Assembly (NCBI GenBank): GCA_044349305.1
Contig: JBIKRF010000004.1
Coordinates: forward strand, 2,324-66,323
DNA from: Flavobacteriales bacterium
GTDB taxonomy: Bacteria; Bacteroidota; Bacteroidia; Flavobacteriales_D; Sanyastnellaceae
Reading direction: 5' to 3'
Length of the DNA: 64,000 nucleotides
Shown here: in pieces, positions 2,467 through 64,000 of the stretch
Layout: each line of letters opens with the position of its first letter
How positions within the stretch are numbered: the stretch's first letter is position 1
The notes under the pieces: model-generated
The model's input: only the letters and a program-made list of their open reading frames with translations
Told to the model about the DNA's origin: nothing
Database searches by the model: none
Position numbers and translations under genes: made by a program

Positions 2467-4605
2467 ATGAAAATCGAAGCAATCACAACGACCATTGACA
2501 TGGGTTCTTCTGCGCCAATTACCATTGAAACTGGTAAATTAGCGAAGCAAGCGCATGGTTCTGTAGTCGTTCGCCAAGGAGATACGATGCTCCTGGCAAC
2601 CGTTGTAGCCAACGAAGAAGCAAAAGAAGGGTTAGACTTCCTTCCTCTAACGGTAGAGTACCGTGAAAAATATGCAGCTGTGGGTCGTTTCCCAGGTGGA
2701 TATTTCAAACGTGAAGCACGTCCATACGACGACGAGATTTTAGTTTCTCGTTTGATTGACCGCGCTTTACGCCCAATGTTCCCAGAAGATTTTCACAGCG
2801 ATACACAAGTTGTTGTATCCTTGATCTCTGCTGACACGGAGCACATGCCTGACAGTTTAGCTGGTCTTGCAGCATCAGCTGCAATTGCAGTTTCAGATAT
2901 TCCTTTCAACGGACCTATTTCAGAAGTTCGTGTTGCACGCATCAACGGTGAGTTCGTTGTGAACCCTACTCGCTCTCAATTGGCACTTGCCGATTTAGAC
3001 ATGATGATTGCAGGAAGTGCAGACAGCATTGTAATGGTTGAAGGTGAAATGAAAGAAGTGTCTGAGGAAGTTATGGTTGAGGCCATTGCTATTGCTCACA
3101 CTGCTATTCAAGCACAAGTAAAAGCTCAATTGGAATTGGCATCGAAGGTTGAAAAAGCGACTGTAAAGCGTTCATACAACCACGAACCAAAAGACGAAGA
3201 GTTGAAGAAGAAAGTATGGGACGAGTGTTATAACAAGTTCTATGTTGCTGTAAAGACTCCATCTGGAAAGAAAGAAAGAAGCGCAGCGTTTCACCAAATT
3301 GAAGAAGAGTTTTTCGCTCAATTCACTGCGGAAGAGAAATCTGCAAATGCTTTCTTGTTGAAGAAATATACCCACGATTGTTTGAAAGACGCTATGCGTC
3401 GCATGATCCTAGACGATGGTATTCGTTTGGATGGCCGCGATACCCGCACCATTCGTCCAATCTGGTGTGAAGTAGATTATTTGCCAGGTGCTCACGGATC
3501 AAGTGTCTTCACTCGTGGAGAAACACAATCTTTGACCACGCTTACTTTGGGAACTAAACTCGACGAGCAATTCGTTGACGGTGTTGTAAATGCACGTAAC
3601 GATAAGTTCTTGTTGCATTACAACTTCCCACCATTCAGCACAGGTGAAGCACGTCCGATTCGTTCAACGGGTCGTCGTGAAATTGGACACGGTAACCTTG
3701 CACTTCGTGCATTGAAGCCTGTTCTTCCTGAAACTGAAAAATGTCCTTACACGATGCGAATTGTGTCTGACATTTTAGAATCGAACGGATCTTCATCTAT
3801 GGCTACCGTTTGCGCAGGTACACTTGCGTTAATGGACGGTGGTGTTCCTATTACTTCTCCAGTATCTGGAATTGCAATGGGATTAATCACAGATGAAAAC
3901 GGGAAATATTCAATCTTATCAGATATCCTAGGAGACGAGGATCACTTGGGCGATATGGACTTTAAAGTAACTGGAACTTCGAAAGGAATTACAGCTTGCC
4001 AAATGGACATAAAGATCAAGGGTCTTTCAATGCAATTGTTAACCGACGCTTTGGATCAAGCCAAGCAAGGTCGTTTGCACATCTTGGGCGAAATGATGAA
4101 AACCATTTCTGAACCACGCGAAGATTACAAACCTCACGCACCACGTATCATTAGCTTCGAAATTCCAACCGAAGAAATCGGAAAAGTAATTGGTCCTGGA
4201 GGAAAAGTAATTCAAGAAATTCAGAAAACAACTGGCGCAACAATCTCTATCGAAGAGCGCGACAACAAAGGATTTGTAGAAATTGCGTCTGCGGACAAGA
4301 CAAGCCTTGATGCTGCTGTGAATCGTGTGAAGTCTATTGTTTGGCCTCCACAAGTTGAAATTGGAGCTACGTATGAAGGTCCAGTTAAAACCATTCAACC
4401 GTTCGGAGCATTCGTTGAAATTATTCCAGGTCAAGATGGCCTTATTCACATAAGTGAATTAGAATGGAGACGTGTAGACGATGTTAACGAGGTATTGAAA
4501 GTTGGTGATTTGGTTAAATTTAAAGTTTTAGGAAAAGATCCTAAGACCGGTAAATTGAAGCTTTCTAGAAAAGCTTTGCTTCCAAAGCCAGAAGAACAAA
4601 ACTAA
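2467..4605 (+). CDS. pnp: Polyribonucleotide nucleotidyltransferase (PNPase)
   Basis: 712 aa with two RNase PH domains, the GDMDFKV motif and C-terminal KH and S1 domains. It follows rpsO, which is conserved synteny. Confidence 0.97.
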
Positions 4606-35191: not shown

Positions 35192-37039
35192 ATGAAAAAG
35201 ATATTTTCCATTTTCCTTTATTCAATCGGGATTCTTGCTCCAATTGAAACTTTTGCTCAAGGTCTGCAGGTGAATCCGCCAGCAGCATCTTCGAAAAAAA
35301 CGGTGGTTGTTCCTCACGCTATTTACCCTTCAGCTTTCCTTTTCAGCGAACCGCAAATTCACTCAATCGACCTCAATGAATCCGGAGAAAAAGTAGCAAT
35401 GCTCGAACAGTCGGGTGAAACAATGACTTTGAAAGTTCTTGAAGTCAAAACGGGAAAAAGTTCAGAGATTAAAGCAAATGGAATTGCAAAAACCAAAAAT
35501 GTTTACTTTCTGAACGATCAATTGCTAGCCCTCGAAATGGTGGGTGAGCAAACATCATTCGACATTTTGGATATTGTAACGAATAAAGTTGTGACAAACA
35601 TCAAGTCGAACCAATACATCGGATCAACGGCAACCGTTGCCTATTTTAGTAATCAAAATAGAGTCAATTCTTCAATAGAAAAATTCGACCTAGCCACCAA
35701 GAAAACGACGAACGCTGGCGCTGTTTCCGGAGAAGTATTTGGCTGGTATTTTTCTAAAGCAAAAGGACTTGTTGGAGTGGCTGTTCACAGTAACATGATT
35801 TCAAAAATTTATACCATAGAAAATGAAAAATTAGGAAAAAGCCTTTTTGAATTCTCTTCCAGTTTTTATTTTGAAACCAAAGGGTGCAATGCCACTGGTG
35901 AGGTTTTTTATGGAATTACAAATTTTCAAAGCTTAACAACCTATGCCTGTTCAATTACCAAATCAGGCATTAAGCCAATGAATGATAAAGCCTCAGAGAG
36001 CTGTACAGATATTTTCATTCAAGGAAATGACATTGCCCTTAGCACAAACAATATCAATGCAGCTGAATACCAAGAATCGAAAAACCCAACGATTCAAAAA
36101 GTATTGAACTTTGCACGTGAGAGTTTCAAGGGATCTTCAATTCAAATTTTTGAAATTTCTGAAAAAAGTAATAACATTTTGTTTTGCGTTCAGAGTGAAA
36201 CCCTAAAACCACGTTTCTTCGTTTGGACAAACAACTCTGCGAAACCCATTTCTTCAGACAAATATGAGGGAAAGAATTTGACCTTTATCTCAAGTGAAGT
36301 TGCTCAAATCCAAACTGGAGAAACAACACCTCAATCTGGCAGAATGTTTCTTCCAACCAAAGACGATAAGTCTAGTTACCCCCTAGTGGTTTACATTCCA
36401 AACAACATATTCCTTCCATACCCGAATCAGTTCAATGCTGCAGTTCAACACCTTTGTCAAAATGGTTACGCCGTATTTGTCTGGAATACACGTTTCTCTT
36501 TCCGTCCGAAAATCGGATTAGCCTATTCCGATTTAGTCGCATCCTTTCCAGAAGACATTAATCTAGTTCTTAAATTTTTGAAATCAGAATATTCAATCCT
36601 TCCTGAAAACACATTTATTGTTGGAGAGGGATTAGGTGGATACCTAGCATTAAACGCCAGCGCAAATGACACTGGATCGTTCATTGGTGTTGTCGTAAAT
36701 CGAATGAACTTTCCAGGAAAGGAATACGGTCAAGATTTACTTGCGGCGCGTATGTTTGGAGAAGATGCCCAAGCGAAATGGGCCACTTTAGATCGCACTT
36801 CGTTATCTCCTAAGACATTCTATTTATCTTATTCTTCTGACAAATCAAAAACAGAAGTCGCATTCGAAAACTCAATAAAAGCAGACAATATCAAATGGAC
36901 AGGGCGTTCTGCGGATAATCGCAATAAATCTATTTCTGCCAAAGATCTTGATGAAATAATAACTTGGCTTCAGCATTTGTCGCAAATTGAAACACGCATT
37001 TTCGAAGTCAAACCTAACGTTGAAGTGAAGAAGAAATGA
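35192..37039 (+). CDS. S9 (prolyl oligopeptidase)-like beta-propeller/alpha-beta hydrolase protein, probably non-catalytic
   Basis: Signal peptide, a propeller-like N-terminal part and a C-terminal hydrolase fold. The nucleophile elbow reads GEGLGGY where GxSxGG is expected. Confidence 0.6.
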   Translation: MKKIFSIFLYSIGILAPIETFAQGLQVNPPAASSKKTVVVPHAIYPSAFLFSEPQIHSIDLNESGEKVAMLEQSGETMTLKVLEVKTGKSSEIKANGIAKTKNVYFLNDQLLALEMVGEQTSFDILDIVTNKVVTNIKSNQYIGSTATVAYFSNQNRVNSSIEKFDLATKKTTNAGAVSGEVFGWYFSKAKGLVGVAVHSNMISKIYTIENEKLGKSLFEFSSSFYFETKGCNATGEVFYGITNFQSLTTYACSITKSGIKPMNDKASESCTDIFIQGNDIALSTNNINAAEYQESKNPTIQKVLNFARESFKGSSIQIFEISEKSNNILFCVQSETLKPRFFVWTNNSAKPISSDKYEGKNLTFISSEVAQIQTGETTPQSGRMFLPTKDDKSSYPLVVYIPNNIFLPYPNQFNAAVQHLCQNGYAVFVWNTRFSFRPKIGLAYSDLVASFPEDINLVLKFLKSEYSILPENTFIVGEGLGGYLALNASANDTGSFIGVVVNRMNFPGKEYGQDLLAARMFGEDAQAKWATLDRTSLSPKTFYLSYSSDKSKTEVAFENSIKADNIKWTGRSADNRNKSISAKDLDEIITWLQHLSQIETRIFEVKPNVEVKKK

Positions 37040-56539: not shown

Positions 56540-56578
56540 TAGATTTGTGTGTTCGGTGCGAATTTGTCGCACAACACA
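56540..56578 (+). promoter_or_regulatory. Candidate -7 element (tagatttg, 56540-56547) followed immediately by a 12-bp interrupted hairpin or operator (56548-56578)
   Basis: Stems tgtgtt/aacaca and gtgcga/tcgcac with loop atttg. It ends 18 nt upstream of the ATPase ATG. Confidence 0.4.
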
Positions 56579-56596
56579 TGACCTAAACTTTTTCGT

Positions 56597-59260
56597 ATGA
56601 TAACCCGAATTATTGGGATAAACACCAGCACCTATGTGAACGCGGAAATGCGTTTAGACGATTGCGATTCATTGCAATTGGTAGGTCCAAACAACGTTGG
56701 TAAGTCAACCCTTATTTACACCTTGAACTTCTTGTTCATTGTAGATGGATCGAAGATGTCCTTTTCCGGACAGCGCCGTGGAGACAAGGAAACCATTCAC
56801 CACTACTTCCCTACTCACAACCAGAGTTACATTATTTTCGAAATCAAGAAGAACGATTCCAACTATTGCATACTTGTTAAACGAGACAGCGATGGAGAAT
56901 TGGAATACTTCCGTTTTACTGGAGAATACAATTCCGACAACTTCTTTAAAAGTGAAGGCGCACACCAACGCATTCGCAAATGGGATGAAGTTCAAGATGA
57001 ACTGAAAGCGGCTGGCGTTGAGCTTTATTTATTCAAGAGTAAAACAGAAGTCTTCAATACCGTTTACTCGAGAGGAAGAAAGAACGATGCTGCTATTTGG
57101 TTGGAAGACAGCGTTCGCACAGACGGACTTTCAAACAATTTCTCGAAAGTTTATCGCTATCTGATTAACTCGAAGTTAATCACAAACAAAACCCTAAAGG
57201 AAAGCTTGATTGTTGCCGATAATCGTGAGAACGAAGGCTTAAGCTTTTCACAGAAAAATAAAAAAGACATCAACGATTTGCTTCGTATCAACGAAGAAAT
57301 CCGCACGGTGAAAAGCATTCAAAAAGAGTTCGAAGAATTCCGTGAAGTTGTGAATTTGTTCAAAGCGAAAACTCGCATCGTTAGCGATTTGGTTTATGCC
57401 TTCGATAAACAATACAACGGAGTGATCAATGAACTAGACAGTTCTCGTTTAGAAAAAGAAAAGCAATATCAAACAACGCTTCTTAATCTGAATGAAAAAC
57501 TTAAACCGAAGCAAGAAGAGTTAAACCGTGATTTAGGTAAGCGCGAATTGGAAGTTGAGATTCAAGAAAAAACATTCATCAATCTTCAAACACAACTCGA
57601 TGAAATTGCGTCTTTCGAAGGGAAGAAATTCTTGGAAGAATCACTTTTGAATCTCGACGCAAAACGTCGCGAATCTGAGGTTCGTATAACCATGGTCGAG
57701 AATCAAAAATTAGACTCGAAGAACTTGGAAGCGAAGCTTCAAAAGATTGACATGACCTGCGGTAAGCTTGAAGCACAAATTAAAAATTACGACGACCAGT
57801 TAATTCACAAGATCACTGCGAAAGACGACATTCGTAAAATTTTGAACACCGTATTTTCTCAAGAATTCGCGGCACTTCCAAGCAAATTGGTGAAGAAAAA
57901 AATCACCAAAGCTGGAACCACTTTGAGCATCTTCGACGGTGAGATCACCTTGCCAAAAGATTTAGTTCTTGCAGACATTCCTTCAGTAAAATCATTGAAA
58001 GATGAACTTCAAGAATTGAAGAGAGAAAAAGCAGAACTTGAAAAACTTTGGGCTGTTGCCTTGAACTTCGACAAAGCACAGAAAGAATTGAGTACGATTC
58101 TTTCTGACATTGATGAAGTGAAAGAGAAGTTAAACAAGCTTAAGAGCAAACCTAAACTCGAAAAAGAAGCCGAAGCGGTAGGAAAAGAACTACGCACCAT
58201 GAAGGCCGAAAAAGAAAAGTGCGAAGGTGATTTGAGTAAGTTGAAAAAAGAACTTTCCGACAAAACTCTCCTACTCGATTCATTGCGCGAAGAGACGCGT
58301 CGCAGCGAAGAGCGTTTGATTGAATTGAAAAGAAGAAAAGCTGAAATTGAAACCTTCGGAATTATTCCAACAGAATTCGATACAACAGAATCGTTGGATG
58401 AGATTTACGGAAAAATCAAAATCTCGAATACCGATCGCGATACGCTGAAAGGCAACAAAGACCGCATGTTCGATCACTTGCGTTTCAAAACGAATTCAGC
58501 AATGGCCGATGAAGAAGAATTCATCAAATATGTTGAAGATGAAATTGCTTGTATCAACGATAAAGTAAAAAGTATCGATGGTCTATTGGGAAGTATCTCT
58601 ACGCAGTTTGCAAACCCTGCATTCAACCTTCGCAAACGTTACGAAGAATTCAAAACGTTCGTATACAATCGCTTCAACGAGAGCTTGGCAAAAACCAGAA
58701 TCTCGAACATTGAATCGCTTCGTATTGAACTCGTAGATAACAAGCGCGTATTGTTCGATCTTGAAAGAATTGCTTCGATTGAAAATTTGAATTCGCAATT
58801 GGCTTTCGAATTTGAGCAAGGCGAAGATTTAAAAATCTTGAATCAATACCTCGACAGCGGAAAGACCATTGACTTCGAAGACCTATTCGATATTGAATTG
58901 CATCTCGATGTAAAAGGAAAACTGAAGCGAGTTGACTTGAAAGAACAAGTTGAATCGGATGGAACTGACCGTATGATTCGTTTGGTTATCGTTATGGCTA
59001 TTATCAACCGTTTAGCTGTTTCGGCGCCAGAGAATAAGATTGCCTTGTTCATCGATGAGATTGGAACCATTGACGAGCATAACCGTCCGCAATTGGTTCA
59101 GTTCTGTAAAGAGCACAACTTTCTTCCAATCTTCGCTGCACCGCAGCCATATGACGGATTCTCGAAGTATTACTTCATCTTCCGTTCGAAAGGAAAAATT
59201 AATTTGAACGACAAGCAGCACGCTGTGCGTCGTGAAGACCTAAAAATATCTGAAAACTAA
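56597..59260 (+). CDS. SMC/Rad50/MukB-like coiled-coil ABC-type ATPase (887 aa)
   Basis: N-terminal Walker A (LVGPNNVGKSTLI). There is about 400 aa of K/E-rich heptad sequence, with a non-coiled break near residues 405-470. The C-terminal head carries a signature-like SDGTDRM and a Walker B/D-loop (ALFIDEIGTID). Confidence 0.8.
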   Translation: MITRIIGINTSTYVNAEMRLDDCDSLQLVGPNNVGKSTLIYTLNFLFIVDGSKMSFSGQRRGDKETIHHYFPTHNQSYIIFEIKKNDSNYCILVKRDSDGELEYFRFTGEYNSDNFFKSEGAHQRIRKWDEVQDELKAAGVELYLFKSKTEVFNTVYSRGRKNDAAIWLEDSVRTDGLSNNFSKVYRYLINSKLITNKTLKESLIVADNRENEGLSFSQKNKKDINDLLRINEEIRTVKSIQKEFEEFREVVNLFKAKTRIVSDLVYAFDKQYNGVINELDSSRLEKEKQYQTTLLNLNEKLKPKQEELNRDLGKRELEVEIQEKTFINLQTQLDEIASFEGKKFLEESLLNLDAKRRESEVRITMVENQKLDSKNLEAKLQKIDMTCGKLEAQIKNYDDQLIHKITAKDDIRKILNTVFSQEFAALPSKLVKKKITKAGTTLSIFDGEITLPKDLVLADIPSVKSLKDELQELKREKAELEKLWAVALNFDKAQKELSTILSDIDEVKEKLNKLKSKPKLEKEAEAVGKELRTMKAEKEKCEGDLSKLKKELSDKTLLLDSLREETRRSEERLIELKRRKAEIETFGIIPTEFDTTESLDEIYGKIKISNTDRDTLKGNKDRMFDHLRFKTNSAMADEEEFIKYVEDEIACINDKVKSIDGLLGSISTQFANPAFNLRKRYEEFKTFVYNRFNESLAKTRISNIESLRIELVDNKRVLFDLERIASIENLNSQLAFEFEQGEDLKILNQYLDSGKTIDFEDLFDIELHLDVKGKLKRVDLKEQVESDGTDRMIRLVIVMAIINRLAVSAPENKIALFIDEIGTIDEHNRPQLVQFCKEHNFLPIFAAPQPYDGFSKYYFIFRSKGKINLNDKQHAVRREDLKISEN

Positions 59261-59367
59261 TGTCAACATTATTAACTGCCCCAAACTTCGCAAGCCTTTA
59301 CCCTTCAAACATTCAAGACATTGAAGAAGTAAAAGTTTGCTACCATTTAGAATCAGAAGAAAAATGA
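59260..59367 (+). CDS. 35-aa micro-ORF bridging the ATPase gene and the next gene, or a frameshifted N-terminus of the next gene
   Basis: The ATG overlaps the ATPase stop (TAATG). Its TGA overlaps the ATG at 59364 (ATGA). Peptide: MSTLLTAPNFASLYPSNIQDIEEVKVCYHLESEEK. Confidence 0.35.
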   Translation: MSTLLTAPNFASLYPSNIQDIEEVKVCYHLESEEK

Positions 59368-60560
59368 TTAAAGCCGAACCACGGACCATATTAAACTTCC
59401 TGAACACGTACTTCGATGTAGTGCGCGACTTGTTTGAATACCAACAACAAGACGGTATCATTACGAAGGAAGTATTCGATATGATTTGTCATAAGCACGG
59501 TGCGCAAATGAAAAGTCGTTTGCGCGAATACCGCGTTGTTCGTTCAATTGGAAGTGATTACGAAATGCGCGATGTGTATTTCAAGTTAATGGAATTTTTG
59601 TTGTTTGAATTCAAACCACTTCTTCCAGAAACCATTGAAAAATACAAAGGAGCCATTGCTGAATTGTTCATGAAAATTCGCAAAAGCGAACATTCCGACC
59701 GCGATATTCTTCAGGAAAGAATTAAAAATCTTTCCGGACAAGTGCGCGAATTCGTTGATCTAGTTGAACGAAACGCTTTCCGTTTATTGGCAGAAACACG
59801 CGATTTGAAATCGAACATTGACCGCGTGCAGTACCGCGAAAAAGTTCACAAAGCTTCCTTTTGGATTGAATACTACATTCTTCCTTTGAACCGCATTCTC
59901 GATGTTAATCACAGTGAATCGGTAACCAGCAAGTTGGTTGAAGTGTGTGAATACGCGAACAGAAAACGTCTCGACTACTCCGACGAAACCACGCGCAGTG
60001 AATATGAAAAACTATACACGCAACTGATTCAAACCAACCAAGACCTGTTGAAACAATCGAAGATTCTGACTAACGAACTTCTTCCTTTACTCGAACGTAT
60101 TCGCACAGAATCGCTTATCCTAACAGGGTTCATCGAGTTCTTGCGCAATCCTTACAAAGTGGAAACTCCGCCTTTGTTGAAAGGAACACGCACGATGGTT
60201 TACGCGAAAGACATGTACTTCAAAGTGCGCGAATTTTTCGAGCAGTTTCAAATTGAAGCGCCTGTTATTGTGGAAAATTCAGAAGCTGATTTCGACCGTT
60301 GGATTTTCGACAGAACCTTATTCAAGGAAAAACTTTCGGCAAGTATGCCTGTGAATGACTTCTTTGGATGGTGTTTCAAAGCGTTGAAAAAAGACTTCGA
60401 TCAAATTGAAACAGACAAATTCTTTGCTGTAACCGGACTGTTATTCGATGAAGAATTGCAAATCGATTATTCGAAGAAAAGCGAACGTGTTTCCATTGAA
60501 ACCACAACATCGATTCTCGATGTACCTAAATTGAAAATTGAACCCGCTATAAAATTATAA
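59364..60560 (+). CDS. Hypothetical helical protein (398 aa from ATG 59364), candidate kleisin-like (MksF/JetA-like) partner
   Basis: Gene position, size and all-helical composition with a central coiled-coil-like segment. The ORF track starts at TTG 59337. The family assignment is inference only. Confidence 0.6.
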   Translation: MIKAEPRTILNFLNTYFDVVRDLFEYQQQDGIITKEVFDMICHKHGAQMKSRLREYRVVRSIGSDYEMRDVYFKLMEFLLFEFKPLLPETIEKYKGAIAELFMKIRKSEHSDRDILQERIKNLSGQVREFVDLVERNAFRLLAETRDLKSNIDRVQYREKVHKASFWIEYYILPLNRILDVNHSESVTSKLVEVCEYANRKRLDYSDETTRSEYEKLYTQLIQTNQDLLKQSKILTNELLPLLERIRTESLILTGFIEFLRNPYKVETPPLLKGTRTMVYAKDMYFKVREFFEQFQIEAPVIVENSEADFDRWIFDRTLFKEKLSASMPVNDFFGWCFKALKKDFDQIETDKFFAVTGLLFDEELQIDYSKKSERVSIETTTSILDVPKLKIEPAIKL

Positions 60561-60561
60561 C

Positions 60562-61104
60562 ATGGTATATCCAGCGCACCATAGACAAATTGTTGAAGAA
60601 CTCATGAGTGGAAAGTTCTTGTTGAACAACGAAGAACACTTCAACAGTCTGAAAGAAAACGAATCGTTCTACGCCGAATTCTTCAAGATTTCTTTCGACC
60701 TAGAATTAATCATGAAGCCCGAGTTCAGTTACCTGCTCAGCAAAGACACTCAAGAAAATTTCTCGCGCGATGTGAGCATTTTCATTGCCATTCTTAGCTA
60801 TGAGTTGGATCGTGACGGACGCAACTTCATTGAGTCTTTCGACTTCAATGAATTTACTTTCGAAGAAATTGACAACTACTTTTTAAATAGTTCATTCATT
60901 GATCTTATTGAAAGCAACAAGACCTTGCGCGACAATGAGAGCAGAAGAACTTTGTTGAACGGTATGGCACGGAGAAATATTATTTACAAAACTTTCGAAG
61001 ACCGTTTTACCTTTACACAAGCTTACAAAGTATTTGTAGACTTCGCTAAAGAACTTGCATTGAAACGCATCAAAGGCGAACCAGAAACACAAAACGCTGA
61101 ATAA
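60562..61104 (+). CDS. Hypothetical protein (180 aa), candidate MukE/MksE/JetB-like (DUF4194-like) partner
   Basis: Starts 1 nt after the previous stop. The N-terminal pattern (ELMSGKFLLNNEEHFNSLKENESFYAEFFKISFDLELIMKPEFSYLL) resembles the DUF4194 pattern. Inference only. Confidence 0.6.
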   Translation: MVYPAHHRQIVEELMSGKFLLNNEEHFNSLKENESFYAEFFKISFDLELIMKPEFSYLLSKDTQENFSRDVSIFIAILSYELDRDGRNFIESFDFNEFTFEEIDNYFLNSSFIDLIESNKTLRDNESRRTLLNGMARRNIIYKTFEDRFTFTQAYKVFVDFAKELALKRIKGEPETQNAE

Positions 61105-61562
61105 TGAAAAAACTAATCTTTACCCTTGCGCTAGCTATCGCATGCTTAGCTAGTACCAACATCAATGCTCAATCCCTTGAGCGTCGCGCAGCGATAGACA
61201 TTTGTGAATGCTCACACATTATTGAAAACAATGTCAGCCCCGCCTTTCGCGAAATCGTAAGATTCAAATTAATTGCAGAAACACAGGACGAATTCGATAC
61301 CGCATTGCTCACTTACGTTACGAATAACCCTGATCAAGCAGCGAAAGATATGCAGTGGATGCAAAGCATGAGCGACGATAACGGACAGTTCCTACGTTGC
61401 ATTTCGAAAATGGAAATGAAATACGACAACACTGAATTGGACACTCCAGAAATGTACAATTCCATAATGGTTGAATTGTATGAAATTCAATGCGATTTCG
61501 CTGCCGCATTATTTATGTTCGGTGCAGAAGTGCAAGAGGCAGAAGTAACAGAAGGAGAATAA
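61104..61562 (+). CDS. Secreted hypothetical protein (152 aa)
   Basis: Signal peptide MKKLIFTLALAIACLASTNINAQ, four Cys and an acidic C-terminus. The ATG overlaps the previous stop (TAATG). Confidence 0.6.
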   Translation: MKKLIFTLALAIACLASTNINAQSLERRAAIDICECSHIIENNVSPAFREIVRFKLIAETQDEFDTALLTYVTNNPDQAAKDMQWMQSMSDDNGQFLRCISKMEMKYDNTELDTPEMYNSIMVELYEIQCDFAAALFMFGAEVQEAEVTEGE

Positions 61563-61587: not shown

Positions 61588-61860
61588 ATGCAATTTAAAT
61601 CTAACCTGTCTTTACTTGCTATAGCAATGCTTCTCATTGCTTCAGGATGTGCAACGGGTAATGAAAAAGAGATTGACACATTAAAGAAAACGCAAGATTC
61701 ACTTGTAGAACAAAATAATGCTCTCAAGGAACAGATTGAAATAGAAAAAGCTCGTGGAGAATACGGCAAAGAAACATATCTGATTCAAACAGAAGTAAAG
61801 CGCAATGAGATTGAAATACTCAAGCTCAAAGAAAAACAAATGACACTTGAGGGTAAATAA
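61588..61860 (+). CDS. Small coiled-coil lipoprotein (90 aa)
   Basis: Lipobox LLIASGC followed by a K/E-rich helix. Confidence 0.55.
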   Translation: MQFKSNLSLLAIAMLLIASGCATGNEKEIDTLKKTQDSLVEQNNALKEQIEIEKARGEYGKETYLIQTEVKRNEIEILKLKEKQMTLEGK

Positions 61861-61932: not shown

Positions 61933-61964
61933 AAGCCCTTGATTTTCAAGGGCTTTTTTATTTT
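61933..61964 (+). terminator. Rho-independent terminator closing the 56.6-61.9 kb gene string
   Basis: Stem aagcccttg/caagggctt with loop atttt, followed by a T-run. Confidence 0.8.
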
Positions 61965-62117: not shown

Positions 62118-64000
62118 ATGACAACATTTCAAGAACTTGGTCTATCGAAGACCACAGTTTCAGCTATCGCTGAAATGGGTTTTGAGAACCCAACACCAAT
62201 TCAAGAACAAGCTATTCCGCACATGCTTACAGGCACAACAGACGTTGTTGCATTAGCACAAACGGGAACAGGAAAAACCGCAGCGTTCGGACTTCCATTG
62301 TTAGAGCTTCTTGACTTTCAAAACAAAAAAACGCAAGCATTCATTCTTGCACCAACGCGTGAGTTGTGTGTACAAATTGCGAAAGACATTCAACGCTTTT
62401 CAGCACACACAACCGGAGCGAACGTAGTTCCTGTATACGGTGGCGCAAGCATTGAAACACAAATTCGTGAAATCAAACGTGGCGCTCAAATCCTTGTCGG
62501 AACTCCTGGAAGAACCTTAGATTTGATTGAGCGCGGAGTAATTGATCTTAGCGCTGTAGACTTTGTAATTCTCGATGAGGCAGATGAAATGCTTCACATG
62601 GGATTCAAAGAAGATTTAGATGCAATCTTATCTGAAACACCAGAAGAAAAACAAACATGGTTGTTCTCGGCTACAATGCCTGCAGAAGTTTCGCGCATAG
62701 CACGTAACTACATGACCAACCCTGTTGAGATTACAGTTGGAAATAAGAATTCCGGCAACGAAAATATTGAACACGTTTATTATGTTACTCACCAACGCGA
62801 TAAATACTTAGCGTTGAAGAGACTTGCCGATTACAATCCTGATATTTTCGCGATTGTATTTTGCAGAACAAAAGCTGAAACACAATCAGTTTCTGAAGCA
62901 TTAATCAAAGACGGATACAACGCCGATTCAATTCACGGTGACTTGTCGCAAGCGCAACGTGACAACGTAATGAAGCGTTACCGTAACCGCACACTTCAAA
63001 TGCTTGTTGCAACTGACGTTGCTGCCCGTGGTATTGATGTGAATGACGTTACACACGTTATACAGTACAACCTTCCTGATGAAATTGAAAACTATACACA
63101 CAGAAGTGGACGTACAGCTCGTGCTGGAAAGAAAGGAATTAGCATTGTTTTAATTAACATGAAGGAAAACTTCAGAATTAAGCAATTAGAGAAAATTATT
63201 CAAACAACATTTACAAAAGGAACACTTCCCACACCTGCAGATGTTTGTGAGAAGCAATTGCTTCACTTGGTGAATCGTGTAAAAGAAACGGAAGTGAACC
63301 AAGGAAGTATTGGAAAATATTTACCAGCTGTTTACGAAGAATTTGCAGACTTCACGAAAGAGCAGGTGATTCAACATTTCATTTCAACTGAATTCAATCG
63401 CTTCTTAGAGTATTACAAGAATGCACCAGACTTAAATGTCGATGCATCTCGCGGTGATGCTCGCGGTGCAACTCCTGGAGTTGTGAAGATGTACATTAAC
63501 GTTGGAAAGAAAGATCAATTTACTTTCAACACGCTGAAGACATACATTGCTGAAGCAACCGGAGTAAGTGAGCAAGAGATTCCATGGTCTGATTTGAAAG
63601 ACACCTTCTCATTGTTCGAAGTGCGCACGGCGTCTTACGACAAAGTATTGGAAGTATTCAATGCAGGAGTAAAATACCGCGGACGTTCTATTCGTGTTGA
63701 ATCACGCGGCAACCAAGAAGCGGGTATCGGACGTGTTCGCATGCGTGGCAACAAGAGCTACAGCGGCGGATATGAGAACCGTGGTGGTGGAGAAAGAAGC
63801 TCAGGCGGAGGAGATAGAAGTTCAGGTGGCGGATACAACCGTGATCGTGGACCTCGCACTGGTGGATCAGACAGAAGCGCTTCAGAACGCAGCTCTGGTG
63901 GTGGTGAAAGACGCTCTTCAAGCGGAGATAGAGGTTCAGCCGGAAGTTCAGCTGGAAGCTCTAGCGGACGTGCTGGCGGATGGAAATTCAAAGAAGGTGG
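62118..64000 (+). CDS. DEAD-box RNA helicase (DeaD/CsdA-like) with a DbpA-type RNA-binding domain and an RGG/SGG-rich tail; 3' end lies outside the window
   Basis: Read manually, because there is no stop in the window and the ORF is absent from the track. N-terminus MTTFQELGLSK...PTPIQEQAIP, then AQTGTGKT, DEAD and SAT motifs. The tail reads GGYENRGGGERSSGGGDRSSGGGYNRDRG. Confidence 0.9.
   Translation, partial: MTTFQELGLSKTTVSAIAEMGFENPTPIQEQAIPHMLTGTTDVVALAQTGTGKTAAFGLPLLELLDFQNKKTQAFILAPTRELCVQIAKDIQRFSAHTTGANVVPVYGGASIETQIREIKRGAQILVGTPGRTLDLIERGVIDLSAVDFVILDEADEMLHMGFKEDLDAILSETPEEKQTWLFSATMPAEVSRIARNYMTNPVEITVGNKNSGNENIEHVYYVTHQRDKYLALKRLADYNPDIFAIVFCRTKAETQSVSEALIKDGYNADSIHGDLSQAQRDNVMKRYRNRTLQMLVATDVAARGIDVNDVTHVIQYNLPDEIENYTHRSGRTARAGKKGISIVLINMKENFRIKQLEKIIQTTFTKGTLPTPADVCEKQLLHLVNRVKETEVNQGSIGKYLPAVYEEFADFTKEQVIQHFISTEFNRFLEYYKNAPDLNVDASRGDARGATPGVVKMYINVGKKDQFTFNTLKTYIAEATGVSEQEIPWSDLKDTFSLFEVRTASYDKVLEVFNAGVKYRGRSIRVESRGNQEAGIGRVRMRGNKSYSGGYENRGGGERSSGGGDRSSGGGYNRDRGPRTGGSDRSASERSSGGGERRSSSGDRGSAGSSAGSSSGRAGGWKFKEG

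What the first reader, a model, noticed from the sequence alone, without database searches (positions are those of the whole stretch)
56540..61104. Compact SMC-like ATPase operon with two helical partners: a possible MksBEF/Wadjet-like module with permuted order and no nuclease subunit
- **Seen in the sequence.** An 887-aa protein has a Walker A head (GPNNVGKST) and about 400 aa of K/E-rich coiled coil, with a short non-coiled break near residues 405-470 (nt about 57809-58004).
- **C-terminal head.** It carries SDGTDRM plus ALFIDEIGTID.
- **Tight coupling.** Overlapping or abutting stops and starts (TAATG, ATGA, a 1-nt gap) link it to a 35-codon ORF, a roughly 400-aa all-helical protein and a 180-aa protein.
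- **Established knowledge.** MukBEF, MksBEF and Wadjet JetABC combine an SMC-like ATPase with a kleisin-like subunit (MukF/MksF/JetA, DUF3375) and a small winged-helix KITE-like subunit (MukE/MksE/JetB, DUF4194). They are usually ordered F-E-B (A-B-C), and Wadjet adds the JetD Toprim nuclease.
- **Inference.** Sizes, order-independent composition and the N-terminal pattern of the 180-aa protein fit that logic. However, the ATPase comes first, it is unusually short, and no JetD/MksG-like gene is present.
- **Why it matters.** The host would be expected to encode a canonical SMC-ScpAB elsewhere, so this would be an accessory condensin-like or plasmid-restriction-like module of a divergent type. 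No nuclease, methylase or other effector motif is visible.
Basis: partly seen in the sequence, partly recalled or inferred. Interest (0 to 1): 0.8.

Follow-up and report, generated by a model that had tools for sequence, protein, structure and literature searches.

The report
Nuclease-less compact Wadjet/MksBEF-like SMC operon
A freshwater Flavobacteriales genome carries a short SMC-like ATPase, a MukF/JetA-type kleisin, an MksE-type subunit and a conserved 35-residue micro-protein; this is a strongly conserved branch of a previously uncatalogued compact Wadjet-like family whose other members carry a DNA-cutting subunit that this branch has lost.

Summary
The interpretation (MksBEF/Wadjet-like, permuted order, no nuclease) is supported.

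- **ATPase (887 aa):** it passes Pfam DUF3584, the JetC/MukB-type family. Its model matches MukB first, then Rad50 and JetC.
- **398-aa protein:** no sequence family, but its confident model matches JetA and MukF kleisins ahead of everything else.
- **180-aa protein:** it passes Pfam PF21980 (MksE).
- **New finding, relatives:** more distant relatives (kleisin 22-55% identical) insert a 254-280-aa JetD-type Toprim protein between ATPase and kleisin. The family's usual order is therefore C-D-A-B.
- **New finding, nuclease loss:** nuclease-less lineages are nested among nuclease-bearing ones, and loss happened at least three times.
- **New finding, micro-ORF:** It is a real, conserved micro-protein gene.
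- **Selection and location:** the three genes have dN/dS of about 0.02. They sit among housekeeping genes and were not found on plasmids or viral contigs.
- **Prior knowledge:** no B-G-F-E or B-F-E operon appears in the largest published Wadjet census.

Most likely this is a loop-extruding SMC complex retained for a nuclease-independent role, probably chromosome organisation. That function is inferred, not shown.

The parts
56540..56596 (+). Putative 5' leader. TAGATTTG (56540-56547) fits the Bacteroidota -7 promoter consensus TAnnTTTG. A 6-bp hairpin/palindrome GTGCGA-ATTTG-TCGCAC lies at 56556-56572.
   Evidence: Read from the sequence. The consensus is from my own knowledge of Bacteroidetes promoters. 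Function was not tested, and the sigma-70 scan is not informative for this phylum.
56597..59260 (+). MksB/JetC/MukB-class SMC-like ATPase, 887 aa. It has an N-terminal head half (1-215), arm helices 219-396 and 464-698, a small hinge-like region at 397-463, and a C-terminal head half (700-887).
   Evidence: Pfam DUF3584 E 3.5e-15, 55.1 bits, cutoff 31. AF2 model pLDDT 70.9. Foldseek top hits: MukB 9gm9_A 4.9e-18, Rad50 7zr1 9e-12, JetC 9qxx_A 1e-11. K36, D820, E821 and H840 are invariant in 24 homologues.
56684..56710 (+). Walker A motif GPNNVGKST (residues 30-38)
   Evidence: G30, P31, N32, N33, G35, K36, S37 and T38 are invariant in alignment A3.
57785..57985 (+). Hinge-like non-coiled region (residues 397-463). 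It contains the conserved FDGE motif (446-449) and no CxxC zinc hook.
   Evidence: AF2 secondary structure. K438, F446, D447 and G448 are invariant.
58955..59074 (+). C-terminal head motifs: signature-like SDGTDRM (787-793) and Walker B / D-loop ALFIDEIGTID (816-826)
   Evidence: S787 through R795, and D820, E821, T824, I825 and D826, are invariant.
59260..59367 (+). Conserved micro-ORF (35 aa; 33-50 aa in relatives). Its core motif is [EP]EV[KR][VL]K[YF][HNT]L[ILQ]EE. It occupies the slot where relatives carry the JetD-like gene.
   Evidence: A micro-ORF directly upstream of the kleisin gene was found in most loci of the 64-100% identity clade. It stays there even where another gene separates the ATPase. 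Alignment A6. Codon-position entropy is 0.64 / 0.47 / 1.31, and the distance to the kleisin start varies from 5 to 63 nt. The motif occurs once per locus and nowhere else.
59364..60560 (+). MukF/MksF/JetA-type kleisin, 398 aa. It has an N-terminal winged helix (6-68), a helical bundle (88-261), a flexible linker (262-316) and a C-terminal winged helix (317-394).
   Evidence: AF2 model pLDDT 87.7. Foldseek PDB top six hits are 9qe0_E and 8q72_E (Wadjet JetABC(D) chains of JetA size) and MukF 3euh_A/B, 9gm9_D and 3rpu_B. No Pfam family for any of 47 members.
60562..61104 (+). MksE-type KITE subunit, 180 aa
   Evidence: Pfam PF21980 MksE, E 2.4e-17, 64.2 bits (cutoff 27), covering residues 6-161 of the protein and positions 2-161 of the 163-position profile. 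NCBI names close homologues 'condensin complex protein MksE'.
61933..61955 (+). Strong intrinsic terminator (10-bp stem followed by a T-run). It is the first clear terminator downstream, so the transcript may also include two small secreted-protein ORFs (61104-61562 and 61588-61860) that are not conserved with the system.
   Evidence: The 152-aa neighbour is conserved only in the closest relatives.

Best explanation
**Shown**
- The locus encodes an SMC-kleisin-KITE complex of the MukBEF/MksBEF/Wadjet group.
- It belongs to a compact, previously uncatalogued family: ATPase about 890 aa, kleisin about 400 aa, KITE about 178 aa.
- The family's usual gene order is ATPase, short JetD-like Toprim protein, kleisin, MksE (C-D-A-B).
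- The window's Flavobacteriales clade has lost the Toprim gene and carries a conserved 33-50-aa micro-protein gene in that slot.

**Inferred mechanism**
- Two ATPase chains dimerise at the small hinge.
- The kleisin's helical domain binds one ATPase neck, and its C-terminal winged helix binds the other head's cap.
- N-terminal winged helices pair two such rings, as in MukBEF and JetABC.
- MksE dimers sit on the kleisin linker.
- ATP binding and hydrolysis load DNA and extrude loops.

**Inferred role**
- Without a nuclease the complex folds DNA rather than cutting it.
- The selection pattern suggests it now serves chromosome organisation or segregation, as nuclease-less MksBEF and MukBEF do.
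- The micro-protein is probably a small accessory or regulatory subunit. Its alternating V-K-L-K-Y-H-L core suggests a beta strand that could add to a partner's sheet. This is speculation.
For: **Identity of the parts**
- ATPase.
- Kleisin.
- MksE.

**Four-gene relatives**
- Ten fetched lineages carry a 254-280-aa protein between ATPase and kleisin.
- Three of these proteins pass the Pfam JetD_C cutoff: 27.3, 25.1 and 22.8 bits against a cutoff of 22.
- One also hits the PADLOC JetD1 model at E 3e-6.
- The Toprim glutamate (VENL) and the DxD motif are invariant in all nine aligned sequences.

**Nuclease loss is derived**
- NJ trees for the three proteins are broadly congruent. Nuclease-bearing lineages are basal, and nuclease-less ones are nested in at least three places.

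**The window lacks the nuclease**
- tblastn with seven JetD-like proteins finds nothing in the 64 kb; the best E-value is 1.2.
- No other conserved neighbour family exists in the nuclease-less loci.

**Selection**
- dN/dS is 0.016-0.026 for all three genes at dS 0.65-1.3.
- In L011 the trio is 84-89% identical, while five neighbouring genes are 41-72% identical.
- The ATPase catalytic residues are invariant.

**Chromosomal, non-mobile context**
- Flanking genes are housekeeping.
- The ATPase can be separated from the other genes by unrelated genes, or lie more than 6 kb away.
- There are no homologues on 72,556 plasmids or in IMG/VR viral contigs.

**Micro-ORF**
-.

**Precedent**
- Nuclease-less members of the Wadjet group, including MukBEF, are recognised (PMC7617805).
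Against: - No function was measured.
- It could not be tested whether the same genome has Smc-ScpAB or a JetD-like gene elsewhere.
- Similarity of the kleisin and ATPase to MukF/JetA and MukB/JetC is at fold level only. Profile searches of PDB sequences and hhalign against E. coli MukE and MukF found nothing.
- TM-scores are low (0.2-0.35) because the models are multi-domain and flexible.
- The ATPase model is only moderately confident (pLDDT 70.9).
- The trees are neighbour-joining without support values.
- The family is small (104 clusters at 50% identity). It is therefore not a phylum-wide condensin.
- The MksE fold was not modelled.
Confidence: 0.62

Rival explanations
1. The module is still an anti-plasmid or anti-mobile-element system. 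It would act without a dedicated nuclease, for example by compacting or silencing small circular DNA. Alternatively it would recruit a nuclease encoded elsewhere, or use the micro-protein as an adaptor.
For: Its closest relatives carry a JetD-type Toprim protein and look like Wadjet systems. Some of those relatives sit next to an integrase-like gene, an antitoxin-like gene or a peptidase S24 gene. SMC complexes can restrict extrachromosomal DNA without cutting it (Smc5/6, as summarised in PMC7617805).
Against: Very low dN/dS and stable presence across many related species are unlike typical defence islands. No mobile-element genes lie nearby. No plasmid or viral copies were found. The nuclease was lost independently several times while the core was retained.
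Confidence: 0.22
2. The module is a DNA-repair SMC-like complex, functionally closer to RecN or SbcCD/Rad50. It would tether or process damaged DNA rather than organise the chromosome.
For: Rad50 is among the top structural matches to the ATPase (7zr1, 9e-12). DUF3584 genes in Shewanella, together with two co-fit hypothetical genes, are needed for cisplatin resistance (bioRxiv 10.1101/072470).
Against: There is no zinc hook and no Mre11/SbcD partner. The partners are a MukF/JetA-type kleisin and an MksE KITE, which Rad50 and RecN lack. MukB matches the ATPase better than Rad50 does.
Confidence: 0.1
3. The module is a decaying remnant of a Wadjet-like system that lost its nuclease and no longer functions.
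For: The nuclease gene is missing.
Against: dN/dS is about 0.02. All ATPase motifs are invariant. Reading frames are intact in about 70 loci. A newly conserved micro-ORF is present.
Confidence: 0.02

Closest known systems
Wadjet / JetABCD (also MksBEFG, EptABCD), types I-III
   Same: It has an SMC-like ATPase of the DUF3584/MukB-like class, a dimeric MukF-type kleisin and a KITE subunit. In family relatives outside the window there is also a Toprim nuclease with the conserved glutamate and DxD motif.
   Different: The window has no JetD. The order is C-(D)-A-B rather than A-B-C-D. The ATPase is about 890 aa rather than about 1100-1400. The relatives' JetD-like protein is 254-280 aa rather than about 400, so it probably lacks most of the N-terminal domain. 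PADLOC Jet models do not detect the window's proteins. Pfam DUF3375 (JetA) and DUF4194 (JetB) are not hit.
Nuclease-less Wadjet-group condensins: MksBEF (Pseudomonas aeruginosa) and MukBEF (E. coli)
   Same: It is a three-subunit SMC-kleisin-KITE complex without MksG/JetD and is chromosomally encoded. MukB and MukF are the best or near-best structural matches. This is the functional analogy proposed here.
   Different: There is no detectable sequence similarity to E. coli MukE or MukF. The arms are roughly half as long and the hinge is much smaller. The gene order is B-F-E rather than F-E-B. There is an extra micro-protein gene.
BEFG-type Wadjet-group operons of Gammaproteobacteria (for example Acinetobacter indicus pB18-1, and the Shewanella DUF3584 genes)
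   Same: The ATPase gene comes first. Its MksG is short (about 290 aa) and its kleisin is about 415 aa.
   Different: There the order is B-E-F-G. MksB is 1239 aa and matches DUF3584 over its full length (384 bits). Its MksE does not match PF21980. Its MksG is DUF7281/DUF2399. hhalign finds no significant similarity to the window family's kleisin, KITE or Toprim profiles.
Smc-ScpAB
   Same: The general SMC-kleisin-KITE logic is shared.
   Different: There are no hits to SMC hinge, ScpA or ScpB models. TIGR02169 SMC scores 17.6 bits against a cutoff of 729. The kleisin is of the MukF type, not the ScpA type.

Membership tests
MukBEF/MksBEF/Wadjet group (MukBEF-like SMC complexes) | SMC-like ABC ATPase with Walker A, a signature-like motif and Walker B on two head halves, joined by a fold-back coiled coil and a hinge | tested here: met
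   Motifs and their invariance. AF2 topology. Pfam DUF3584 above cutoff. Foldseek MukB 4.9e-18 and JetC 1e-11.
MukBEF/MksBEF/Wadjet group (MukBEF-like SMC complexes) | MukF/MksF/JetA-type kleisin: N-terminal winged helix, helical bundle, flexible linker, C-terminal winged helix | tested here: met
   Met at fold level only. AF2 pLDDT 87.7. The top six Foldseek hits are JetA-size Wadjet chains and MukF. Sequence models do not detect it: no DUF3375 hit.
MukBEF/MksBEF/Wadjet group (MukBEF-like SMC complexes) | KITE subunit of the MukE/MksE/JetB type | tested here: met
   Pfam PF21980 MksE, 64.2 bits against a cutoff of 27, nearly full length. The tandem winged-helix fold itself was not modelled.
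MukBEF/MksBEF/Wadjet group (MukBEF-like SMC complexes) | The three genes co-occur as one conserved gene cluster | tested here: met
   The order is the same in all informative loci. The order B-F-E differs from the published FEB and BEF orders.
MukBEF/MksBEF/Wadjet group (MukBEF-like SMC complexes) | Assembly into a dimer-of-rings holocomplex with ATP-dependent DNA entrapment and loop extrusion | not testable with these tools
   This needs multimer modelling or biochemistry.
Wadjet defence system (JetABCD) in the strict sense | JetD/MksG Toprim nuclease encoded with the complex | tested here: not met
   It is absent from the 64-kb window (tblastn best E 1.2) and from all loci of the clade. It is present in more distant family members.
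Wadjet defence system (JetABCD) in the strict sense | Detection by curated defence-system models (PADLOC JetA/B/C) | tested here: not met
   The window proteins give no Jet hits. Relatives give only weak JetC, JetB and JetD hits.
Wadjet defence system (JetABCD) in the strict sense | Restriction of small circular plasmids | not testable with these tools
   An experiment is required.
Smc-ScpAB | SMC hinge domain plus ScpA kleisin and ScpB | tested here: not met
   Pfam and NCBIfam give no SMC_hinge, ScpA or ScpB hits. The SMC equivalog scores 17.6 bits against a cutoff of 729.
Rad50/SbcC | CxxC zinc hook at the coiled-coil apex and an Mre11/SbcD nuclease partner | tested here: not met
   The cysteines lie at positions 23, 91, 388, 542, 652 and 837 and do not form a CxxC motif. 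No SbcD-like neighbour exists. The Rad50 equivalog scores 8.7 bits against a cutoff of 700.
PARIS AriA / AAA_15-AAA_21 abortive-infection ATPases, Lamassu LmuB | Full-length match to the family model and the cognate partner (AriB, or LmuA and LmuC) | tested here: not met
   There are only weak matches: AriA on the N-terminal part (25 bits for residues 28-168; 17 bits for residues 17-345), LmuB on residues 452-744 (7 bits), and AAA_21 at 25.2 bits, below its cutoff of 27. The partners are a kleisin and a KITE instead.

The most novel reading that the evidence does not exclude
This would be a natural series in which a compact Wadjet-like plasmid-restriction machine was repeatedly stripped of its nuclease and domesticated as a chromosomal condensin. 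In the Flavobacteriales branch a new 35-residue micro-protein would have taken the nuclease's place as a fourth subunit. The complex could then be a main chromosome-folding motor of these Bacteroidota. A Hi-C study reported that it could find no recognisable condensin in two other Bacteroidetes, although one of them, Bacteroides caecimuris, showed arm alignment (PMC10197239). That study did not examine this family, and I did not show the family to be present in those species.
Probability: 0.25. Interest if true: 0.8.

Novelty: new variant of a known kind. Interest (0 to 1): 0.62.

Why it matters
- **Origin of condensins from defence systems.** SMC complexes of the Wadjet group either cut plasmids or fold chromosomes, and how one role evolves into the other is an open question. 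This family offers closely related pairs with and without the nuclease, including sister lineages. That makes the transition directly testable.
- **Minimal SMC machine.** The arms are roughly half the usual length, the hinge is tiny and the Toprim subunit of relatives is short. These features are useful for testing how arm length relates to loop extrusion and to sensing of DNA size.
- **Gap in current tools.** The family escapes current defence-system models and the largest published Wadjet census.
- **Micro-protein.** The conserved micro-protein is an unexplained extra component.

Tried and rejected
- **PDB sequence searches.** Single sequences and family profiles of all three proteins and of the JetD-like protein gave only coiled-coil noise.
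- **hhalign against known subunits.** Family profiles against E. coli MukE and MukF, and against the MksE, MksF and MksG of an Acinetobacter BEFG operon, gave nothing significant.
- **Micro-ORF as a relic.** I tested whether the micro-ORF is a relic of the JetD-like C-terminus, or of the kleisin or ATPase. hhalign gave no support, so its origin is unexplained.
- **Micro-ORF as noise.** I first dismissed the 35-codon ORF because tblastn lost it at 89% identity. Direct inspection of the spacers reversed that conclusion.
- **PADLOC on the window proteins.** No Jet hits.
- **Plasmids and viruses.** Searches for family members found none.
- **Rfam.** No hits over the whole window.
- **Failed look-ups.** The first genome contigs attempt failed because the 47-sequence alignment was too divergent. 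The Petrushenko 2011 MksBEF paper is not held.
- **Literature.** Searches for this family, for PF21980, and for condensins of Bacteroidota or Flavobacteria found no description.
- **Rejected families.** Rad50/SbcC, RecN, AriA, LmuB and Smc-ScpAB were considered and rejected; see the membership tests.


Full report
**1. The observation**

The ORF list shows four tightly packed genes on the + strand:
- an 887-aa protein (56597-59260);
- a 35-codon ORF (59260-59367);
- a protein of 398 aa from its ATG (59364-60560);
- a 180-aa protein (60562-61104).

The junctions are TAATG, ATGA and a 1-nt gap, as described. The motifs GPNNVGKST (residues 30-38), SDGTDRM (787-793) and ALFIDEIGTID (816-826) are present. 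The two long helical stretches are 27-29% K+E and are separated by a non-coiled stretch at residues 397-463.

**2. What the three large proteins are**

*ATPase.*
- It passes Pfam DUF3584 (55.1 bits, cutoff 31). PADLOC's own JetC models are described as 'DUF3584 domain; MukB-like'.
- An AlphaFold2 model (pLDDT 70.9) gives a split ABC head, two antiparallel arm helices of about 180-235 residues and a hinge-like region of about 65 residues.
- Foldseek against the PDB ranks MukB first (4.9e-18 to 6.8e-13). Rad50 follows at 9e-12, JetC at 1e-11 to 1e-8, and then Smc5/6 and condensin.
- There is no CxxC hook.

*The 398-aa protein.*
- It has no Pfam, NCBIfam or PADLOC family. None of 47 diverse relatives has one either.
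- Its model is confident (pLDDT 87.7). It shows an N-terminal winged helix, a long helical bundle, a low-confidence linker and a C-terminal winged helix.
- Its six best PDB matches are two Wadjet chains of JetA size (9qe0_E, 8q72_E) and MukF (3euh_A/B, 9gm9_D, 3rpu_B), all with probability 0.92-1.0. That chain E is JetA is my inference from chain length.

*The 180-aa protein.*
- It passes Pfam PF21980 'MksE' over nearly its whole length (64.2 bits, cutoff 27).
- NCBI already names close homologues 'condensin complex protein MksE'.

The locus therefore encodes an SMC-kleisin-KITE set of the MukBEF/MksBEF/Wadjet group. The similarity of the ATPase and kleisin to solved members is at fold level only. 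Profile searches of PDB sequences and hhalign against E. coli MukE and MukF found nothing.

**3. Relatives and the missing nuclease**

*Size and spread of the family.*
- The kleisin family is small: 104 clusters at 50% identity among 1.84 billion representatives, nearly all about 400 aa.
- A scan of one genome per GTDB species found 233 hits. The best 80 are all Bacteroidota MAGs. The window is essentially identical to a Flavobacteriales MAG contig, JANQWV010000047.1.
- In every locus with enough sequence the order ATPase, kleisin, MksE is kept.

*A fourth gene in relatives outside the window's nuclease-less clades.*
- Ten fetched lineages have a fourth gene between ATPase and kleisin, with overlapping starts and stops. 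Their kleisins are 22-55% identical to the window's. The gene encodes a 254-280-aa protein.
- Three of these proteins pass the Pfam JetD_C gathering score (27.3, 25.1 and 22.8 bits against 22). Others score 15-20 bits. One hits the PADLOC JetD1 model at 3e-6.
- The Toprim glutamate (C-x-V-E-N-L) and DxD (D-Y/F-D-x-x-G-L) are invariant in all nine aligned sequences.
- The family's usual form is therefore a compact Wadjet-like operon in the order C-D-A-B.

*Loss of the fourth gene.*
- Neighbour-joining trees of kleisin, MksE and ATPase are broadly congruent. Nuclease-bearing lineages are basal.
- Nuclease-less lineages are nested in at least three places: the window's Flavobacteriales clade, several lineages at 52-57% identity (one of them sister to nuclease-bearing L075/L067/L070), and L094, whose ATPase is closest to nuclease-bearing L088.
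- These trees carry no support values.
- The 64-kb window has no JetD-like sequence (best tblastn E 1.2).
- No other gene family is conserved next to the nuclease-less trios.

**4. The 35-codon ORF**

tblastn lost this ORF at 89% identity, which first suggested noise. Reading the spacers directly changed that conclusion.
- Most loci of the 64-100% identity clade have a 33-50-codon ORF ending at or just before the kleisin start. Its N-terminus is variable, its core is [EP]EV[KR][VL]K[YF][HNT]L[ILQ]EE, and its tail is acidic.
- It stays with the kleisin gene even where an unrelated gene separates the ATPase (L013-L015, L018, L024).
- In the core codons, variation is concentrated at third positions (entropy 0.64 / 0.47 / 1.31). 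Lys and Arg interchange through unrelated codons. The distance to the kleisin start varies from 5 to 63 nt. This argues for protein-level selection rather than a ribosome-binding or RNA element.
- A strict motif pattern occurs once per locus in 44 of the first 60 loci and in L066. It occurs nowhere else, including the nuclease-bearing loci and the second nuclease-less clade.
- Profile comparison with the JetD-like protein, the kleisin and the ATPase gave nothing. Its origin and role are unexplained.

**5. Housekeeping or defence?**

- Between the window and two relatives with unsaturated synonymous divergence, dN/dS is 0.016-0.026 for all three genes.
- In L011 the trio is 84-89% identical, while five neighbouring genes are 41-72% identical.
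- Walker A lysine, Walker B aspartate and glutamate, the signature-like motif and the H-loop histidine are invariant.
- Flanking genes in the window are ordinary chromosomal genes: tadA-like deaminase, glycosyltransferase, cyclomaltodextrinase, TsaD, Tgt, LptF/G, type III glutamine synthetase and a DEAD-box helicase. There are no mobile-element markers.
- Flanks differ between genera. In four loci no ATPase lies within 6 kb. That is tolerable for a housekeeping complex but unusual for a horizontally moving defence cassette.
- No family member was found on 72,556 plasmids or in IMG/VR viral contigs.
- I therefore favour a retained, nuclease-independent role, most plausibly chromosome organisation or segregation by loop extrusion, by analogy with MksBEF and MukBEF.
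- This is inference. A nuclease-free or trans-nuclease defence role, or a repair role, is not excluded. For the repair reading, compare the cisplatin phenotype of DUF3584 genes in Shewanella (bioRxiv 10.1101/072470).

**6. Comparison with what is known**

- Bürmann et al. (Cell 2025, PMC7617805) treat MukBEF, MksBEF and Wadjet as one 'Wadjet group' and note that several members lack MksG/JetD.
- Their census of operons from about 257,000 genomes lists the structures FEB, FEBG, GFEB, BEF and BEFG. The tokens BGFE, BFE and related permutations do not occur. The Bacteroidota passages retrieved from that table are FEB or FEBG operons with MksB genes of about 3.3-3.4 kb.
- A BEFG example, Acinetobacter pB18-1, has a 1239-aa MksB matching DUF3584 over its full length and an MksG of the DUF7281/DUF2399 type. 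Its MksE does not match PF21980. None of its subunits aligns significantly with the window family's profiles.
- The window family is therefore a separate, compact branch. Only its KITE subunit is captured by a named database family.
- A Hi-C study found no recognisable condensin in two other Bacteroidetes, although one of them, Bacteroides caecimuris, showed arm alignment (PMC10197239). I did not show that those species carry this family.

**7. Verdict**

- It is a new variant of a known kind: a nuclease-less, micro-protein-bearing branch of a compact Wadjet/Mks family with C-D-A-B order.
- Main uncertainties are its cellular role, whether Smc-ScpAB or an unlinked nuclease coexists in the genome, and what the micro-protein does.

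Noticed in passing
window 61104-61562 and 61588-61860; terminator 61933-61955: Two small ORFs follow MksE with no terminator before 61933. One is 152 aa with a signal peptide, and its start overlaps the MksE stop (TAATG). The other is 90 aa with a lipoprotein-type signal (LIASGC). They may be co-transcribed. The 152-aa protein is conserved only in the closest relatives, and the 90-aa ORF gave only one weak tblastn match.
   Followed up: partly
window 56556-56572: A perfect 6-bp inverted repeat, GTGCGA-ATTTG-TCGCAC, lies in the 115-bp gap between the tadA-like gene and the ATPase start. It is just downstream of a TAnnTTTG promoter-like motif (56540-56547). It could be an operator or a leader hairpin.
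   Followed up: no
L013, L014, L015, L018, L024 (gap between ATPase and micro-ORF): A gap of about 1.2 kb separates the ATPase from the micro-ORF, kleisin and MksE unit in these relatives. In L013 the gap holds an opposite-strand 302-aa gene that looked to me like an extradiol dioxygenase; no family search was run. The downstream genes must therefore have their own promoter there.
   Followed up: partly
L044, L046, L059, L066: No ATPase gene lies within 6 kb upstream of the kleisin and MksE genes in these Flavobacteriales MAG loci. The system can be split across the genome, or the ATPase has been lost there.
   Followed up: no
P0188 and L085:2308-5013: Precomputed annotations list a weak hit of a Pfam family 'PF28007: MksF' on two ATPase homologues, not on the kleisin. 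The hmmscan copy used here did not reproduce it. It may be a newer Pfam model or a coiled-coil artefact.
   Followed up: partly
window 57157-58819, minus strand; also L-series loci: Several antisense ORFs of 50-190 aa inside the ATPase coiled-coil region recur across loci. They are most likely a by-product of the K/E-rich codon usage on the sense strand, not genes.
   Followed up: partly
window 35192-37039: A 615-aa ORF upstream of tgt has no Pfam match at E <= 1e-5.
   Followed up: no
window 4519-4605, minus strand: ARAGORN calls a tRNA-Pyl (anticodon CTA) inside the 3' end of a 712-aa + strand ORF (2467-4605). Rfam finds no tRNA there, so it is probably a false positive.
   Followed up: partly
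window 62118-64000 (runs off the end): A DEAD-box RNA helicase has a long Gly/Arg/Ser-rich C-terminal tail. Its family recurs in 18 fetched loci, at a median of about 2.9 kb downstream of the kleisin start but at variable positions.
   Followed up: no
L003, L004, L008, L019, L045, L062, L076 (record titles): Public MAG records are labelled Chryseobacterium gleum, Comamonadaceae, Competibacteraceae or Bifidobacterium. They carry loci 53-99% identical to the window's kleisin, which comes from a Flavobacteriales MAG. These taxonomic labels look wrong.
   Followed up: no
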